IMG/VR virus record: IMGVR_UViG_3300044693_000229
Span: 3,963-67,962 of that record
Reading direction: 5' to 3' (one strand)
Origin: a virus
Taxonomy: Duplodnaviria > Caudoviricetes
Length of the DNA: 64,000 nt
Position 1 is the stretch's first letter; every line of letters starts with the position of its first letter. Below are positions 11,070 to 48,010 of the stretch, piece after piece. The translations under genes were made by a program, and so were the position numbers. The notes under the pieces were generated by a model that was given only the letters and a program-made list of their open reading frames with translations, did not search any database and had not been told where the DNA came from.

Positions 11070-11606
11070 ATGGCCGAAGAATACGACGCGCTGCCGCCTT
11101 CCGAATTCGGTCGATACGAATTTGCGGTCGATAACCGGCCGCATTATGACAATTATGTCGAATACCGGTTGCATGGCGTGGATAAGACGACTGCGTTTCG
11201 CAAGTCGTTTCCGCGAATGTATTGGGATGACTATCGAAAAACGCCGACTTATGCTGATGAGGTTGAGTTCAATCTCTATACCGTTCGTCGGCTCGCTCAG
11301 CGTGTATCGGAAATCGAACCATCGCAGCTTTGGAATCCGAAAATCGCTATGCACGAAATGCTTTCTGTTGTGCGCGACCCGACTGCGCAGACGTCCGCTA
11401 AAGTGCGGGCCATGGAAAGCTTGAACCTGTTGTCTGGCATTACCTTCGTCGACGATAAGGGCAAAACACGTCTTGGCTCGTCGCTGGACGACTTCTATCG
11501 CGATCAGCGTGAGCAGGATCAGTTACGGGAGGCGGACCAGGGCACCGACTCCGATGACGTACCTTCGGCCCCAACCACTGAAACGAACGAGGAAACTACC
11601 TCATGA
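11070..11606 (+). CDS. terS: Terminase small subunit, Pbunavirus E217 type
   Basis: LWNPKIAMHEMLSVVRDP...LNLLSGITFVDDKGKTRLGSSLDDFY closely parallels the E217 TerS sequence as recalled; acidic tail. Confidence 0.8.
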   Translation: MAEEYDALPPSEFGRYEFAVDNRPHYDNYVEYRLHGVDKTTAFRKSFPRMYWDDYRKTPTYADEVEFNLYTVRRLAQRVSEIEPSQLWNPKIAMHEMLSVVRDPTAQTSAKVRAMESLNLLSGITFVDDKGKTRLGSSLDDFYRDQREQDQLREADQGTDSDDVPSAPTTETNEETTS

Positions 11607-12193
11607 AACACATGCGAATGTTGTTGACCTTTCTGACGGTCGCTTGTTTGTGTATCGCCTGCTTCGGGCTGGACGGGTGTGCCACGTCGCAGCCAAAAGG
11701 CAATCAGCCATCCGCCACTGCGCCGGCAACCTCTGGAGTTGGCAGCGCACAAAATCTGTCGGTGCAGCAGATCGTCAAGATTGCATGCCCGCCCATGCAA
11801 GCCGCCTCGCAACAGTTCGCGGCAATCGCCGGCACTATGGCTTTGACCAATCCCAGCTATGCCAAAGTGCAGCGGGATCTTTTGAAGTCGCAGCCGGTCA
11901 TCGCGGCAGTCTGCGCGGCGAATGCCACCCTTTCCTTTGCCAATCTGCAGAACTTGGCCGCCACCGCATTGCCAGCGCTTGCTGACATCGCCGGCACCGT
12001 GAACCTGGCTCCTGCGCAAATGCAAGCCGTCCAAGCGGGATTGCTGGCAGCACAGGTAGCGCTAGGCGTGGCGGATGTCGTGGAGGCCAACATCGCGGCA
12101 GCCAAGGACGGTCAGCAAGCGCCGCCCCCTCCTGTTCCGTCTGTGCCGGCTAGTGCGTCAACCGTTGTGGCGCCGGCAACCGCGGCTAAGTAA
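11603..12193 (+). CDS. Ala-rich lipoprotein
   Basis: Basic N-terminus, hydrophobic stretch, near-canonical lipobox LDG-C26; hydrophobic helix near the C-terminus. Confidence 0.65.
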   Translation: MKHMRMLLTFLTVACLCIACFGLDGCATSQPKGNQPSATAPATSGVGSAQNLSVQQIVKIACPPMQAASQQFAAIAGTMALTNPSYAKVQRDLLKSQPVIAAVCAANATLSFANLQNLAATALPALADIAGTVNLAPAQMQAVQAGLLAAQVALGVADVVEANIAAAKDGQQAPPPPVPSVPASASTVVAPATAAK

Positions 12194-12212
12194 CAATTCC
12201 CGTTTCCCCTTT

Positions 12213-12252
12213 GGCGTCGGTTTGGTAACGGGCCAATCCGGCGCCCTTTTTT
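12213..12252 (+). terminator. Rho-independent terminator
   Basis: GGCGTCGGTTTGG/CCAATCCGGCGCC stem followed by T6. Confidence 0.7.
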
Positions 12253-12271
12253 GCGCGCTGCATAAGCAAGT

Positions 12272-12348
12272 TGGCAGGGCCGCCAGGATTCGAACCTGGG
12301 AATGTCGCAGTCAAAGTGCGATGCGTTAAGCCTCTTCGCCACAGCCCC
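12272..12348 (-). tRNA. tRNA-Gln (anticodon UUG)
   Basis: Cloverleaf: GGGGCTG/CGGCCCT acceptor, anticodon arm TCGCA-CTTTGAC-TGCGA, T arm CCAGG-TTCGAAT-CCTGG, encoded CCA. Confidence 0.93.
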
Positions 12349-12364
12349 GCGTAAAAGTTTTAAG

Positions 12365-12790
12365 ATGACCCCGGCATCTTTCGATGGCGGTTATTATCTA
12401 GCGGGCCATCATCGCCAAGCGATGCCTCCCGTTCGACTTGGTTCCAGCTTCGGGATTCGCCTCTTTCCTCAGAATGCATTCTGAGCCGAACCGGAGCCAT
12501 CTGAAAACGATCAAGGGTCACCCCTCAGCCTGCGTACCCTCCTGGCCCACGCGCAGTTTCTACCAGGAGCTTTAGGGTAGGTCGAACCACTATTCTGGGC
12601 GAACCACTGAGGGATGACCCTTGATGATTCTCTTTAAACGGTATTCCCCATCCCAGCTATCAACGGCGCTACCCGTTATCCGCTTTTGCATGTGGCGGTA
12701 CAACTTCGCTGGGATGGGTTGCCTACGGAACCGCTTAACCGATTGTCAGTCATGCCGCAGACGCGCACCGCGACAGACTCAAGGCTAGAA
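12365..12790 (-). ncRNA. Candidate large structured non-coding RNA upstream of the tRNA
   Basis: At least four nested helical domains, including a 19-bp and an 11-bp closing stem and a possible pseudoknot; no ORF of 60 aa or more on the transcribed strand. Strand inferred from context. Confidence 0.6.
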
Positions 12791-12812
12791 GTATCTTACT
12801 TCAATTTTGCGA

Positions 12813-13097
12813 TTATGTTTTTATACCTACATCATAAATTATCATCGAAGGAATGGATTCGCGCTTGCGCTTCGTCATCTCGTCATCGCTGAGTTTATGC
12901 AGCTTCTTATCCTCTTTCATCTTTCGATAAGTGACGACTTGCCGCGGCGTGAAATCCATCGTTCCTGGCGTGACTTCGCCGTTTCGAAAATTGGTGATTG
13001 GTCCGCTGACCTGCAAGCCAAGTGATCGGATGTACTGAACCATGGCCAGGAGCCGCGTATCGCTGGGGCGTTTCATGATGGGGACCATTACCTTCAC
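12813..13097 (-). CDS. Hypothetical protein
   Basis: GGAGTG RBS; coupled to the upstream gene. Confidence 0.6.
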   Translation of the reverse strand: MKVMVPIMKRPSDTRLLAMVQYIRSLGLQVSGPITNFRNGEVTPGTMDFTPRQVVTYRKMKEDKKLHKLSDDEMTKRKRESIPSMIIYDVGIKT

Positions 13098-16715: not shown

Positions 16716-16882
16716 TTTACTTCGGGGATCTCCATATCTTCGTCACCAGTGATCCATTTCCCCGTTTCGGTATCTATCACGTACCATTCGTCTCCTATGG
16801 CGAAATCTCGCGCCGTCTTTTCGTCATTCGTTCCTTTTACGCAGCCGTCAAAAAGATCAACGATATAATAGCGGTATTTCAT
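16712..16882 (-). CDS. Hypothetical protein
   Basis: GAGG RBS before MKYRY. Confidence 0.55.
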   Translation of the reverse strand: MKYRYYIVDLFDGCVKGTNDEKTARDFAIGDEWYVIDTETGKWITGDEDMEIPEVK

Positions 16883-16951
16883 ATATTCCTCTCGTTGTTG
16901 GTCGGACCGCCCGTGCATGCCCTCGAGGATGGCAAAGGCATGCACGGGCGG

Positions 16952-17158
16952 TCAGGCTTCGATCATTACGCCATCGCCCGTAACGCTGAGCATTGAGCCA
17001 TCATCGAAGCGATAGAGCGTTCCGCCATGCGCGAGCTTCCACGAATGCGAACATTGTTCCCGAGCTTCTTTGCGGGCAAGGTTGGACGTCCGGCTATCGC
17101 GGAAGATGCGAGCGGCCAGTGAGATATAGTCGTCGGAATCCATATGATTCATCTTCAT
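16952..17158 (-). CDS. Small cassette-array protein
   Basis: Preceded by the repeated CATTGAGGAAATGAAGATG element. Confidence 0.6.
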   Translation of the reverse strand: MKMNHMDSDDYISLAARIFRDSRTSNLARKEAREQCSHSWKLAHGGTLYRFDDGSMLSVTGDGVMIEA

Positions 17159-44640: not shown

Positions 44641-45273
44641 GTGTCATCGATCATATCTTCTATTTTGGCGTCGCCTAATGCATCGTCGAGCACTAGATTT
44701 TTCAACGAAAATTCAGGGCAAGCATGTTGGACAACGGCGAATGTAAGGCATATTGAAATAGTCAATGAATCCGAAAATTCGGAAGTACCTTTATCGACGC
44801 AACAAGTCAATGAGACGTCTGTCTATCAATCGCTTCTTGCGACGGATGTCGAAACAGTAAAAATCATTCGTCCAACGCGCATACGAGTCTCCATGATCGC
44901 CGCAGACATGTCGCTTATCGATAATGTCAAAGCGTCTTTCGCCGATCCAACGCAAACGATCCAGGTCACGTCAAAATCAATCATCGCAACCTCCATGTCA
45001 GTGGTCCATGTAGGCATTGATATGGAGCCCGGGATGTTATCGGCGAACCGCCTAACTGTCTTGATGGAACAAGTTCAGTTGGCACAGACATCGAACTACA
45101 ATCCTCTGCAGGCCGCAGACCGTCCCACGGTGAACCTTGGGGTGCAGACCTTGCAGACGGTGGGGCCATCGCTGAGTGCTACGATTGGGAACAATGCGGC
45201 GAGCTTGGTTTCAACGGCGACAACGGCGGTAGGATCTTTGTACCAACGTGTTACGGCGAACTTGGGATTGTGA
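44641..45273 (+). CDS. Baseplate hub/tube-capping protein, paralogue
   Basis: GGAGG then GTG start; shares layout with the 44070 protein. Confidence 0.6.
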   Translation: MSSIISSILASPNASSSTRFFNENSGQACWTTANVRHIEIVNESENSEVPLSTQQVNETSVYQSLLATDVETVKIIRPTRIRVSMIAADMSLIDNVKASFADPTQTIQVTSKSIIATSMSVVHVGIDMEPGMLSANRLTVLMEQVQLAQTSNYNPLQAADRPTVNLGVQTLQTVGPSLSATIGNNAASLVSTATTAVGSLYQRVTANLGL

Positions 45274-45276
45274 TCC

Positions 45277-45699
45277 ATGATAGAAATACAAACGGCCCAA
45301 GGAACAAAGCGAATTGAGATCAAACGCTTTAGCGCGTTGGATGGGTGGGATCTCCATTCTAATTTTACACGGTTCGCTGATTCAAAAGATCATAAAGAGA
45401 GAAGCCAATACGTATTTCGCGTTTTGAGCCATGCAAAAGTCGTGTTGTCTCAAGGCGTCGAGTTCCCTTTGACGACGAACGCTTTAATCGACAATCATTT
45501 GTGCACGGCTGAAAACGTAGGCAAAGTATTCGAAGCCGTTATGCGATTTAATGGCATTGATGTTTTCAAAAGCGCGCAATTAGCGGATCATAGAAACAGA
45601 ATTGCGAATGAGATCGCTACTTCATTCATGGCGCAATGCGCGTCTGCGTTAAACGCATTTGTCGATTTTGCGATTAATCAAGGAATAAATCATGACTGA
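45277..45699 (+). CDS. Tail assembly chaperone-like protein
   Basis: Precedes the tape measure; FSALDGWDL. Confidence 0.6.
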   Translation: MIEIQTAQGTKRIEIKRFSALDGWDLHSNFTRFADSKDHKERSQYVFRVLSHAKVVLSQGVEFPLTTNALIDNHLCTAENVGKVFEAVMRFNGIDVFKSAQLADHRNRIANEIATSFMAQCASALNAFVDFAINQGINHD

Positions 45700-48010
45700 C
45701 CAAGTCGTCGACAAATTCGTTTGGCAATACATTGTCGAAACCCGCGATTCTCTAAAGAAAATAGAGGATTTCCAAAAGAAGCAAAACGAAGTAGAAAAGT
45801 CATCGAAAAAGCAGTCTTCTTCCATGAAGGAACTTGGCAATTCGCTGCGGACCTTGGCAAGCGAAGCCGGCGGCGCTGGGGAGGCTGCTATAGGGCTAGG
45901 CGAGGCATTGACGACACTTGGCGCTGCCGCAGGACCTATCGCGGCAGTGATCGGCGTGGTTATGCTGTTGAAGAAAACGCTGCAGGAAACAAAGGCTACG
46001 ATGTCGGATTTGTTGAACCAGCGTGACTTAGGTGCTCGCATCGGCCTTTCTGGAGTAAGCGTCGAGAACATCACGCGTAATTTACGGCGCGTGCCTGGCA
46101 GTCAGATCGATCAACGCGGCGTAAATGACATCTTGGAAAAGATCGGCACAAAACTGCAATCGGCCTATATCGACCCTGCGCAAATGAACGCCGATGCGAT
46201 CCAGTTACGTCAAGCTGGCGTTTCTATCAATGGCAAAAACGGTGGCATCAATACGACTGTCGGCGCATTGGACGAGTTACAAGCCAAATTCAAGTCGGTC
46301 AGCGAAGAACAAGCGCGCGGCATCGGTCGGGTCCTTGGTTTGACGAACCAACAGGTTGACGCAATGCGCAATCTGGAAACCACACTAAACGATACAACGC
46401 ATATGACTGCTGCGGAAACGGCAGCACGTATTGCGGCTCAACAAAAAACAGAGGAACTTGTTTCCGCCGAAAACGATCTGTCGGATCATTGGAGAACATT
46501 AAAAGAAGATTTATTAGTCCATGTTATTCCAGCCATTGATTTGATCGTAAAAGCGCTTGATGGGCTGGTTCAGATCGGCGAAAAGGTTGGCGGGTCGATT
46601 AGTGGCGCGGCATCTCATGTATGGAGTTTTGCGAAAAATCATGTAGAAAATTTCAAAAGAACAAGCACGGAACTGCTACATGGAGATTTCAAAAGCTTCT
46701 TTGGTGACGTCGCTCGCGAATGGAACCAATCCGGCGATACGATTCATTCTTCCGCAAAAAGCATGATGAAAACGGCCGATGACCAGGCGCAAGCGACGAC
46801 GACCGCGCAAACAGAATTGCAGCGCATCATCAACATGTTTTCGCAATCGGTCACGCAATTTAGCAATAGCATCGACGAACGCCAGGCATGGGCGGCTTGG
46901 GCCGGCGAGATCGGCCGAGCTGGCGGCCTAGGGTCCAGTGGAAATAAATCGCTTGGAATGACCGGCACGGGCGGGAATACAGCCGCATTCAACGAAGCCG
47001 CGCAGACGGCTGCGCAATATGGCCTGACGGCGACAGCAGTTGGGAGTTCGGCCAAAGACGTCCATGACTACGATGCCATTTTTCAAATGGCGGCTGCGAA
47101 AACCGGCTTGCCCGCTGATCTCTTGAAGCGCGTGGCCATGGCGGAATCGAGTCTGATCCCGACAGCGAAAAGTTCAGCCGGCGCGCGCGGGCTCATGGGC
47201 ATCATGCCGTCCAATTTCAAAGCTTACGGGATTACCAATCCTGATGACCCCACACAAAGCATTATGGCCGGCGCGCAGATCCTTGCGGCGAACTATAAGC
47301 GGTATGGCAATATTGACGATGCCTTGCGCGCCTACAATGGCGGCACCGATAAATCTCGCTGGGGGAAAACAAAAGAGAACGCTGAATATGTTGGAAGGAT
47401 CGCCGCGCAGAACGCCACGATCAATGGTGAAGATTTTAGTGCGAACCCCGACCTGCAAAACAACTTACTTTCGTCGTGGGGGAAACTCGCTTATGACCCC
47501 AAGGCGACGCCATTGTTTAACTTTAATGGTTCAAGGCTAGTCGACCCTCGTAAAGGCGGCGAATCAAGAGAAAAATCGCAGCTTTTGAACCTTCAACAAC
47601 AATTGGCTGCACAATTGGGCGTTCCAGTGTCGCAGCTGCAGACAGGCAATGTCAGCCGCGGAGATGTAGATTGGGCCGCATCGAACATGATGGCGAACTT
47701 GGTCAACAGTCGTTACACATTGTTGAATCAAATGAATGTTCCTGGCTTAACGTCGATGGCAAAAGCTGGTCTTTATTCGCAGTTGAAGACGACGGATACG
47801 AATATCCAATCGATGATGCGCTATATGCCAAACATCGATCAATCAGCGATGCCCGGCGATCGAAACATAACCATTGGAACGGGAGCAGTTCAAGTCATTG
47901 TTCAAGGCGCTAATGTCACGCCAGAACAATTGGCCAAAGAGATAAATAGTACGCTTGCTGATCATCTCAATGAAGTGATCAATCATAACGCTAGTGCGGT
48001 TGCAAACTGA
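45692..48010 (+). CDS. Tape measure protein with a lytic transglycosylase (SLT) domain
   Basis: Helical repeats; AMAESS...ARGLMGIMP...AYNGG. Confidence 0.9.
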   Translation: MTDQVVDKFVWQYIVETRDSLKKIEDFQKKQNEVEKSSKKQSSSMKELGNSLRTLASEAGGAGEAAIGLGEALTTLGAAAGPIAAVIGVVMLLKKTLQETKATMSDLLNQRDLGARIGLSGVSVENITRNLRRVPGSQIDQRGVNDILEKIGTKLQSAYIDPAQMNADAIQLRQAGVSINGKNGGINTTVGALDELQAKFKSVSEEQARGIGRVLGLTNQQVDAMRNLETTLNDTTHMTAAETAARIAAQQKTEELVSAENDLSDHWRTLKEDLLVHVIPAIDLIVKALDGLVQIGEKVGGSISGAASHVWSFAKNHVENFKRTSTELLHGDFKSFFGDVAREWNQSGDTIHSSAKSMMKTADDQAQATTTAQTELQRIINMFSQSVTQFSNSIDERQAWAAWAGEIGRAGGLGSSGNKSLGMTGTGGNTAAFNEAAQTAAQYGLTATAVGSSAKDVHDYDAIFQMAAAKTGLPADLLKRVAMAESSLIPTAKSSAGARGLMGIMPSNFKAYGITNPDDPTQSIMAGAQILAANYKRYGNIDDALRAYNGGTDKSRWGKTKENAEYVGRIAAQNATINGEDFSANPDLQNNLLSSWGKLAYDPKATPLFNFNGSRLVDPRKGGESREKSQLLNLQQQLAAQLGVPVSQLQTGNVSRGDVDWAASNMMANLVNSRYTLLNQMNVPGLTSMAKAGLYSQLKTTDTNIQSMMRYMPNIDQSAMPGDRNITIGTGAVQVIVQGANVTPEQLAKEINSTLADHLNEVINHNASAVAN

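What the first reader, a model, noticed from the sequence alone, without database searches (positions are those of the whole stretch)
12365..12790. About 430 nt multi-domain structured RNA candidate fused upstream of the phage tRNA-Gln
Seen: the ORF-free stretch between the 12813 gene and the tRNA folds into consecutive closed domains. A: GGCATC 12373-78/12421-26 enclosing GATGGC 12383-88/12405-10. B: 12440-45/12493-98 and 12449-53/12486-90 enclosing an 18-bp perfect palindrome at 12468-85. C: a 19-bp stem 12510-28/12607-25 whose single mismatch is a G-U pair on the minus strand; it encloses CTCCTGG 12539-45/12563-69, crossed by CTGCG 12530-34/12552-56 (pseudoknot topology). D: an 11-bp stem 12647-57/12708-18 forming a three-way junction. 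Domain C carries AGTGGTTCG twice (12583-91, 12600-08), resembling the tRNA T-loop sequence. Known: large phage ncRNAs such as GOLLD and ROOL often lie beside tRNAs, and paired T-loops bind tRNA elbows in T-box RNAs and RNase P. Inference: this is an unrecognised ncRNA class co-transcribed with the tRNA, possibly a tRNA mimic, binder or processing element that counters tRNA-cleaving defences. I could not match it by eye to a known family.
Basis: partly seen in the sequence, partly recalled or inferred. Interest (0 to 1): 0.82.

Follow-up and report, generated by a model that had tools for sequence, protein, structure and literature searches.

The report
Orphan hairpin-rich spacer before phage tRNA-Gln
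The gene-free stretch upstream of this uncultured phage's only tRNA really is non-coding and folds unusually well, but it has no relatives anywhere I could search and no tRNA-like parts. It is best read as a one-off structured spacer in the tRNA precursor, not yet as a new RNA class.

Summary
The stretch (window 12349-12812, read on the minus strand like tRNA-Gln 12272-12348) is non-coding. It folds better than shuffles (z -4.5). The signal comes from domain C (25-bp stem closing a 78-nt branched interior, z -5.5) and domain D (11-bp stem, three-way junction, z -3.6). Domains A, B and E are weak.

Domain C is the second most stable local fold on the minus strand of the 64-kb window. The 18-bp palindrome is the longest perfect one in the window.

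No Rfam family matches. A purpose-built tRNA model finds nothing tRNA-like. No canonical T-arm exists, and the two AGUGGUUCG copies simply pair with each other.

The only other copy is the same phage (1 SNP in 7.8 kb). A 64%-identity relative has tRNA-Gln 9 nt after the homologous gene and lacks the stretch. Covariation therefore cannot be tested.

Most likely (0.35) it is a lineage-specific structured spacer, co-transcribed between the early operon and the tRNA and acting in cis on RNA processing or stability. A trans-acting novel ncRNA (0.2), an inert insertion remnant (0.25) and DNA-level control sites (0.12) remain open. Interest is low to moderate.

The parts
12272..12348 (-). tRNA-Gln(UUG) with encoded CCA; the only tRNA of the 67,962-bp phage
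   Evidence: ARAGORN; Rfam RF00005 60.2 bits; acceptor stem pair probability 0.98 in the long transcript
12349..12364 (-). A/U-rich unpaired 5' leader directly before the tRNA (expected RNase P substrate side)
   Evidence: Sequence; unpaired in the MFE fold; the RNase P role is inferred
12365..12432 (-). Domain A: short competing hairpins, one a 4-bp stem with a GAAA loop and one a 6-bp stem with a UUG loop.
12436..12502 (-). Domain B: hairpin around the 18-bp perfect palindrome 12468-12485, the longest in the window and unique in it
   Evidence: (I7); z -1.5; hairpin pair probability 0.82
12503..12632 (-). Domain C: 19-bp stem plus a 6-bp extension (three G-U pairs that would be A-C on the plus strand), closing a 78-nt branched interior. 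The interior holds the 12-nt direct repeat (12580-91 and 12597-608) and the 7-bp stem with a possible pseudoknot. UUUU follows 2 nt after the 19-bp stem.
   Evidence: I1, D1; z -5.5, -64.2 kcal/mol; second-ranked locus on the minus strand; pair probability 1.0 and 0.98; weak terminator-like call
12640..12725 (-). Domain D: perfect 11-bp stem (12647-57 with 12708-18) closing a three-way junction with two small hairpins
   Evidence: I3; z -3.6; pair probability 0.99
12726..12812 (-). Domain E: two modest hairpins just after the ORF stop. Positions 12796-12810 keep, in another frame, the last codons and stop (AKLK*) of the longer homologue in relative L194, so homology with the relative ends at about 12796.
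   Evidence: z -1.6 minus, -0.1 plus; and the sequence for the AKLK* remnant
12813..13097 (-). Last protein gene of the minus-strand (early) operon, 94 aa, no family. Homologues are 64-68% identical in L194 and L195.
   Evidence: coding score 0.18 bits per codon
12199..12250 (+). Hairpin plus T-run ending the convergent plus-strand operon; marks the convergence point just beyond the tRNA
   Evidence: Sequence; inverted repeats I9 and I11

Best explanation
The roughly 450 nt between the last early-operon gene and tRNA-Gln are a lineage-specific, non-coding, hairpin-rich spacer. It is transcribed on the minus strand as both the 3' tail of the operon mRNA and the 5' leader of the tRNA precursor. 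Two very stable modules dominate it: domain C (a 25-bp stem closing a branched interior) and domain D (a three-way junction).

I propose that it acts in cis. RNase P releases the tRNA, and the long duplex of domain C then blocks 3'-to-5' exonucleases and/or offers a double-strand (RNase III-type) cleavage site. This would uncouple and stabilise the mRNA and the tRNA.

Shown: it is non-coding, the helices are stable, it lies on the tRNA's strand, and it is absent from a relative. Inferred: co-transcription and the processing or stability role.
For: - Non-coding.
- No promoter-like site scoring at least 9 of 12 and no canonical terminator between the gene and the tRNA.
- The tRNA cloverleaf stays folded independently of the leader (acceptor pair probability 0.98) while the C and D stems are near-certain.
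- The C stem is 19+6 bp. Its extension and one internal pair exist only as G-U on the minus strand.
- Domain C ranks second on the minus strand but about 18th on the plus strand.
- The strongest local fold in the window is another long, perfect 21-bp hairpin right after a gene stop in the same minus-strand gene block. This phage therefore does punctuate that block with long duplexes.
- Relative L194 places tRNA-Gln 9 nt after the homologous gene, so the stretch is an accessory add-on and is not needed for tRNA expression.
- There is no family-level conservation.
Against:
- A simple exonuclease barrier or RNase III site does not need a 78-nt branched interior, a three-way junction or 450 nt.
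- Shuffle z-scores are as good on the plus strand, so DNA-level symmetry is not excluded.
- An 18-bp zero-spacer palindrome is more typical of a protein-binding DNA site than of an RNA hairpin.
- With a single independent sequence, selection on the fold cannot be shown.
Confidence: 0.35

Rival explanations
1. A stand-alone, trans-acting structured phage ncRNA of an undescribed kind. It would consist of domains C and D, with or without the rest, be released from the tRNA precursor, and be analogous in genomic position to ROOL, GOLLD or the small stable RNAs of the T4 tRNA cluster.
For: It is non-coding and strongly structured on the tRNA strand. It has a multi-branch interior with a possible pseudoknot (sequence). 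It has no Rfam match. Large phage RNAs are often found near tRNA islands (bioRxiv 10.1101/2024.12.08.627333).
Against: It is a singleton; the only other copy is the same phage. No sequence or covariance-model homologue was found in 34 related phage records, the phage database, 400 Gammaproteobacteria or the metagenome and viral pattern scans. Only one of about nine hairpins has a GNRA loop. Domains A, B and E are no better than many shuffles. There is no expression evidence.
Confidence: 0.2
2. A functionally inert remnant. Foreign or rearranged DNA was inserted at a recombination-prone convergent junction, and its inverted repeats are historical rather than selected.
For: The junction is a hot spot. 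Pluto, Carpasina and phi9_PA11 have only about 170 nt there. L194 has tRNA-Gln, tRNA-Trp and a 152-aa gene. G006 has about 1 kb plus three tRNAs in the opposite orientation. The stretch is orphan DNA. Homology with L194 stops abruptly at about 12796, and the upstream gene is truncated relative to L194.
Against: No remnant of the neighbouring genes of L194 or L195. No decayed tRNA. No extra copies or shared terminal repeats elsewhere. Phage genomes this densely packed rarely keep 450 nt of junk. The extreme stability of domains C and D is unexpected for random decay.
Confidence: 0.25
3. A set of DNA and transcription control sites. Domain C would act as an oversized terminator for the early operon. 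A weak promoter would follow, with its -10 lying inside the 18-bp palindrome, which would serve as an operator. The tRNA would then be separately regulated.
For: UUUU follows 2 nt after the 19-bp stem, and the scan flags a terminator-like site there. An 8-of-12 promoter-like match (TTTTCA, 18 nt, CAGAAT) starts at 12507 with its -10 inside the palindrome. The palindrome is the longest in the window and has zero spacer.
Against: The promoter match is at chance level, with two 8-of-12 hits on each strand and none at the tool's threshold. The U-tract is itself paired in the 6-bp stem extension with probability 0.98. The palindrome has no second copy or half-site elsewhere. No cognate repressor was identified.
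Confidence: 0.12
4. A tRNA mimic, a tRNA-elbow binder with paired T-loops, or a decayed tRNA array.
For: GGUUCG occurs three times on the minus strand of the stretch, against about 0.2 expected from the window-wide rate. The relative L194 has a second tRNA at this locus.
Against: No T-arm. The tRNA covariance model scores at most 1.3 bits inside the stretch. Rfam tRNA, tmRNA and YrlA give no hit at E up to 10. ARAGORN finds only noise at 60-80% thresholds on both strands. The repeat copies pair with each other. The phage has no Ro/TROVE gene.
Confidence: 0.03

Closest known systems
ROOL (RF03087) and GOLLD (RF01998) large ornate phage/prophage RNAs
   Same: A non-coding, multi-domain structured stretch in a phage, next to a tRNA gene. 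ROOL and GOLLD are 'often near tRNA islands' (10.1101/2024.12.08.627333).
   Different: No covariance-model match even at E 10. It is smaller (about 450 nt, of which about 220 nt are robustly folded). It has no family of homologues and no covariation support.
Small stable RNAs of the phage T4 tRNA cluster (species 1 and 2, RNA C and D) - from my own knowledge, not tested
   Same: Non-tRNA structured RNA co-transcribed with phage tRNA and released by precursor processing.
   Different: The T4 RNAs are about 120-140 nt and have tRNA-like ends. Here no tRNA-like module is detectable. No sequence comparison was made.
Intercistronic RNase III / stabiliser hairpins of phage early operons (e.g. T7 R sites) - established knowledge, analogy only
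   Same: A long (at least 20 bp) duplex between cistrons of an early operon. A second 21-bp hairpin sits in the same gene block.
   Different: Known sites are about 50-60-nt hairpins with an internal loop, not a 130-nt domain with a branched interior followed by further domains. Cleavage was not tested.
YrlA / bacterial Y RNAs (RF02553)
   Same: A long basal stem closing a branched module of about 100-130 nt (domain C).
   Different: No covariance-model hit, no T-arm or D-loop mimic, and no Ro/TROVE protein in the phage.

Membership tests
tRNA / tRNA-like module (RF00005 cloverleaf) | Cloverleaf or at least acceptor/T-arm coaxial module detectable by a tRNA covariance model | tested here: not met
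   Rfam at E<=10 finds only the real tRNA. Own tRNA model R2 with filters off gives 80 bits on the tRNA and <=1.3 bits inside 12349-12812.
tRNA / tRNA-like module (RF00005 cloverleaf) | T-arm: 5-bp stem closing a 7-nt UUCRANN loop | tested here: not met
   An explicit scan of both strands, allowing one mismatch, found none.
Paired (interdigitated) T-loop elbow-binding module (T-box stem I, RNase P) | Two T-loop motifs in distinct loops that interlock in 3D | tested here: inconclusive
   The two AGUGGUUCG copies are predicted to base-pair with each other in one hairpin. The 3D motif itself is not testable with these tools.
ROOL / GOLLD | Match to the family covariance model (conserved core helices and pseudoknots) | tested here: not met
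   No hit at gathering score or at E<=10.
ROOL / GOLLD | Phage/prophage location beside tRNA genes | tested here: met
   The stretch directly abuts tRNA-Gln in a complete direct-terminal-repeat phage genome.
tmRNA or tmRNA-mimicking phage RNA | Tag reading frame with pseudoknots, or a tmRNA model match | tested here: not met
   ARAGORN default finds no tmRNA. Its low-threshold 'permuted tmRNA' calls only reuse the real tRNA. No Rfam tmRNA-clan hit.
YrlA / Y RNA | Model match plus an associated Ro (TROVE) protein | tested here: not met
   No RF02553 hit. PF05731 is absent from the whole phage genome.
Intrinsic terminator | GC-rich stem immediately followed by a U-tract | tested here: inconclusive
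   Only a weak site is called at 12527-12512. There are 4 U, located 2 nt after the 19-bp stem, and they are paired in the stem extension.
MITE / IS-derived miniature element | Terminal inverted repeats shared by multiple copies in phage or host genomes | tested here: not met
   Single copy in the window. The arm pattern is absent from IMG/VR. No match in 400 Gammaproteobacteria.
Protein-coding gene or pseudogene | Open frame, codon bias or homologues | tested here: not met
   Stops in all frames, non-coding codon scores, no homologue of the 53-aa ORF, and no remnant of relatives' neighbouring genes.

The most novel reading that the evidence does not exclude
Domains C and D (with or without the rest) form a stable RNA of about 220-450 nt, processed from the tRNA-Gln precursor. 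It would be the first sampled member of an undescribed class of phage structured RNAs that travel with tRNA genes, and it would act in trans on a host or phage target.
Probability: 0.17. Interest if true: 0.6.

Novelty: new member of a known kind. Interest (0 to 1): 0.27.

Why it matters
If the cis-acting spacer reading is right, this is an ordinary if unusually elaborate example of how phages package a tRNA at the end of an operon. It would matter mainly for annotation.

If it proved to be a discrete trans-acting RNA, it would add to the growing set of unexplained structured RNAs beside phage tRNA genes. As a singleton from an uncultured phage it cannot currently be tested by comparison. Any bench work would need synthetic constructs or the unknown host; the tRNA's 3' half hints at Thiothrix or Ketobacter-like Gammaproteobacteria.

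Tried and rejected
**Homologue searches, all empty**
- blastn against 50,697 phage records.
- blastn and more sensitive blastn/nhmmer against 34 related IMG/VR records found through the capsid protein.
- Covariance model of domain C against the same records and nearby loci.
- 400 Gammaproteobacterial genomes and five genomes carrying the most similar tRNA-Gln.
- Metagenome pattern scans with a domain C 21-mer and a tRNA 23-mer.
- IMG/VR pattern scans. The double AGTGGTTCG pattern hit more than 119 contigs, but none resembled the stretch beyond the pattern itself. The tRNA anticodon-arm pattern and the domain C arm pattern gave 0 hits.
- Neighbour-protein searches. The 94-aa protein has only 3 relatives. 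The 196-aa protein matches only itself. The search for related loci with single proteins and with an alignment found nothing.
- The scan's own index.

**Ideas considered and rejected**
- Decayed tRNA array.
- Decayed copy of relatives' genes.
- Small protein gene in domains A and B.
- Ro/Y-RNA system.
- MITE.
- A -1 frameshift extension of the 94-aa gene into the conserved AKLK* codons. There are only five A's, no proper slippery heptamer, and it would add about 7 residues.

Strand asymmetry from G-U counts was inconclusive once base composition is considered.

Full report
**Context.** The window is bases 3963-67962 of a complete 67,962-bp IMG/VR phage genome with direct terminal repeats. The phage is a distant PB1-like myovirus. 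A neighbouring protein (11070-11606, phrog_4783) is 35-43% identical to proteins of Pbunavirus, Carpasinavirus and Luteibacter phage Pluto. The capsid protein is at most 80% identical to IMG/VR relatives. The phage has a single tRNA, tRNA-Gln(UUG), at 12272-12348 on the minus strand.

The flagged stretch lies on that strand between the last gene of a minus-strand operon (12813-13097, 94 aa) and the tRNA. Just beyond the tRNA, the plus-strand replication-module operon ends in a hairpin with a T-run (12199-12250). The locus therefore sits at a convergent junction.

**Observation.** The 464 nt fold far better than dinucleotide shuffles on both strands: z -4.5 on minus and -5.1 on plus.

Split by domain, the signal is concentrated in two places:
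- Domain C (12503-12632): -64.2 kcal/mol, z -5.5 on minus and -4.3 on plus.
- Domain D (12640-12725): z -3.6 on minus and -4.7 on plus.

Domains A, B and E are weak on the minus strand (z -1.5 to -1.8).

In the ensemble of a 640-nt minus-strand transcript, the near-certain elements are:
- the C stem (19 bp) and its 6-bp extension;
- the 11-bp D stem;
- the tRNA acceptor stem.

The palindrome hairpin has probability 0.82. The 7-bp CUCCUGG stem is only one of two comparable alternatives (0.3).

In a scan of the whole window with 130-nt windows, regressed on GC and G+U content, domain C is the second most stable locus on the minus strand (z -4.1) and about 18th on the plus strand. A coarser 464-nt scan of the first 42 kb ranks the region second and third on minus, and outside the top 12 on plus. 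The 18-bp palindrome at 12468-12485 is the longest perfect palindrome in the window and has no second copy.

**Non-coding status.**
- All six frames carry stops.
- A codon-usage log-odds score trained on the phage's long ORFs gives 0.12-0.19 bits per codon for five neighbouring small genes, but -0.19 to +0.05 for every ORF of at least 30 aa in the stretch.
- The longest same-strand ORF (53 aa) has no hit among 1.84 billion representative proteins.
- Proteins encoded next to the homologous gene in relatives leave no trace in the stretch.

**Known families.**
- Rfam 15 gives only the tRNA, both at gathering score over the window and at E<=10 over 12150-12900. This excludes ROOL, GOLLD, YrlA, tmRNA, group I/II introns, the self-cleaving ribozymes and the riboswitches at that sensitivity.
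- The T-loop idea fails at the secondary-structure level. No 5-bp stem with a UUCRANN loop occurs on either strand.
- ARAGORN at 60-80% thresholds yields equally poor cloverleaves on both strands.
- The two AGUGGUUCG copies are the only two in the window. They are a 12-nt direct repeat 17 nt apart, and in the MFE fold they form the two strands of one hairpin, because GGUUCG and CGACC are near-complementary.
- The phage has no Ro/TROVE gene.

**Comparative evidence.** This is where the finding cannot be advanced. The 94-aa neighbour has only three relatives among 5.8 billion protein clusters.
- One lies on a 7.8-kb JGI contig (L193) that differs from the window by a single SNP and is identical across the stretch. 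It is the same phage.
- The 64%-identity relative L194 has tRNA-Gln starting 9 nt after the homologous gene, followed by tRNA-Trp and a 152-aa gene, with no counterpart of the stretch.
- L195 and L196 have protein genes there.

Cultured relatives (Pluto, Carpasina, phi9_PA11) have only about 170 nt at the same convergent junction. Among 34 IMG/VR relatives only one, G006, has tRNAs.

The last codons and stop of the L194 gene (AKLK*) survive in another frame at 12796-12810. Homology with the relative therefore ends at about 12796, and roughly 447 nt are specific to this phage.

All sequence, pattern and covariance-model searches for a diverged copy were empty. They covered the phage database, related viral records, viral and metagenome collections, 400 Gammaproteobacteria and the scan's own index. 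Covariation therefore cannot be tested. Read data were not available for this window.

**Interpretation.** No sigma-70-like promoter reaches 9 of 12 matches, and there is no canonical terminator between the gene and the tRNA. The simplest reading is that the stretch is co-transcribed as the operon's 3' tail and the tRNA's 5' leader.

Several points fit a cis-acting structured spacer that gives a double-strand cleavage site and/or an exonuclease barrier once RNase P has released the tRNA:
- The tRNA folds independently of the leader.
- Domain C offers a 25-bp duplex whose extension and one internal pair are G-U only on the minus strand.
- The single strongest local fold in the window is another perfect 21-bp hairpin, immediately after a gene stop in the same minus-strand block.

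I put this at 0.35. It does not explain why the interior of C, domain D and 450 nt would be needed. A trans-acting RNA (0.2) therefore stays open, as does an inert insertion remnant at a visibly recombination-prone junction (0.25). So does a DNA-level reading (0.12): an oversized terminator, then a weak promoter whose -10 lies in the palindromic 'operator'. The tRNA-mimic reading is essentially excluded at the secondary-structure level (0.03).

**Novelty and interest.** The feature is real, but it is a singleton without homologues, expression data or a recognisable motif. It belongs to the known broad kind 'structured non-coding RNA regions adjoining phage tRNA genes'. It is not a member of any named family. 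The scan has repeatedly reported conserved tRNA-adjacent phage RNAs on other DNA (e1-517609, e1-122108, e1-295977; further tRNA-elbow mimics). The features I could test for, a tRNA-elbow module and a tmRNA-like part, were not found here. Interest is low to moderate (0.27).

Noticed in passing
window 16823-17030 (hairpin core about 16905-16955, minus strand): The most stable local fold in the whole window on both strands (z -5.1 minus, -4.2 plus). It is a perfect 21-bp hairpin with a 7-nt loop right after a gene stop, followed by an RBS and start codon. There is no U-tract, so it is probably an intercistronic processing or stability hairpin rather than a classical terminator.
   Followed up: partly
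L071:1750-2750 (minus strand) = G006:C1 about 44990-45990: The only tRNA-bearing relative among 34 (64% capsid identity) has about 1 kb of ORF-poor sequence between its phrog_4783 gene and a tRNA-Gly/Arg/Met cluster, plus a 260-nt gap between tRNA-Arg and tRNA-Met. The stretch is rich in UUCG and GNRA-capped hairpins and contains a 24-bp stem. It has no Rfam hit, no blastn hit in the phage database, and no hit in the other 33 relatives. It looks like a better candidate for a large tRNA-linked phage RNA than the flagged stretch, but it is also an orphan.
   Followed up: partly
L071:1243-1303 (minus strand): Weak sub-threshold YrlA (RF02553) match (20.2 bits, E 0.61) directly upstream of tRNA-Met in G006.
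   Followed up: no
L194:5349-5508: The 64%-identity relative carries tRNA-Gln(UUG) and tRNA-Trp(CCA) back to back, starting 9 nt after the homologue of the 94-aa gene. Its tRNA-Gln has different acceptor, D and anticodon stems from the window's tRNA-Gln (the two share little beyond the T arm and 3' end), which suggests replacement rather than simple descent.
   Followed up: partly
window 12272-12298 (tRNA 3' part): The 27-nt T-arm and acceptor 3' strand are identical to tRNA-Gln of Thiothrix, Ketobacter and other Pseudomonadales-like Gammaproteobacteria. The whole tRNA is only about 80% identical to theirs. This is a weak hint at the host group.
   Followed up: partly
window 12796-12830: The 94-aa gene ends (IKT*) just after a run of five A's. 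The last codons and stop of the longer L194 homologue (AKLK*) follow in the -1 frame. This looks like a deletion or frameshift scar at the gene's 3' end rather than programmed frameshifting.
   Followed up: partly
   Followed up: no
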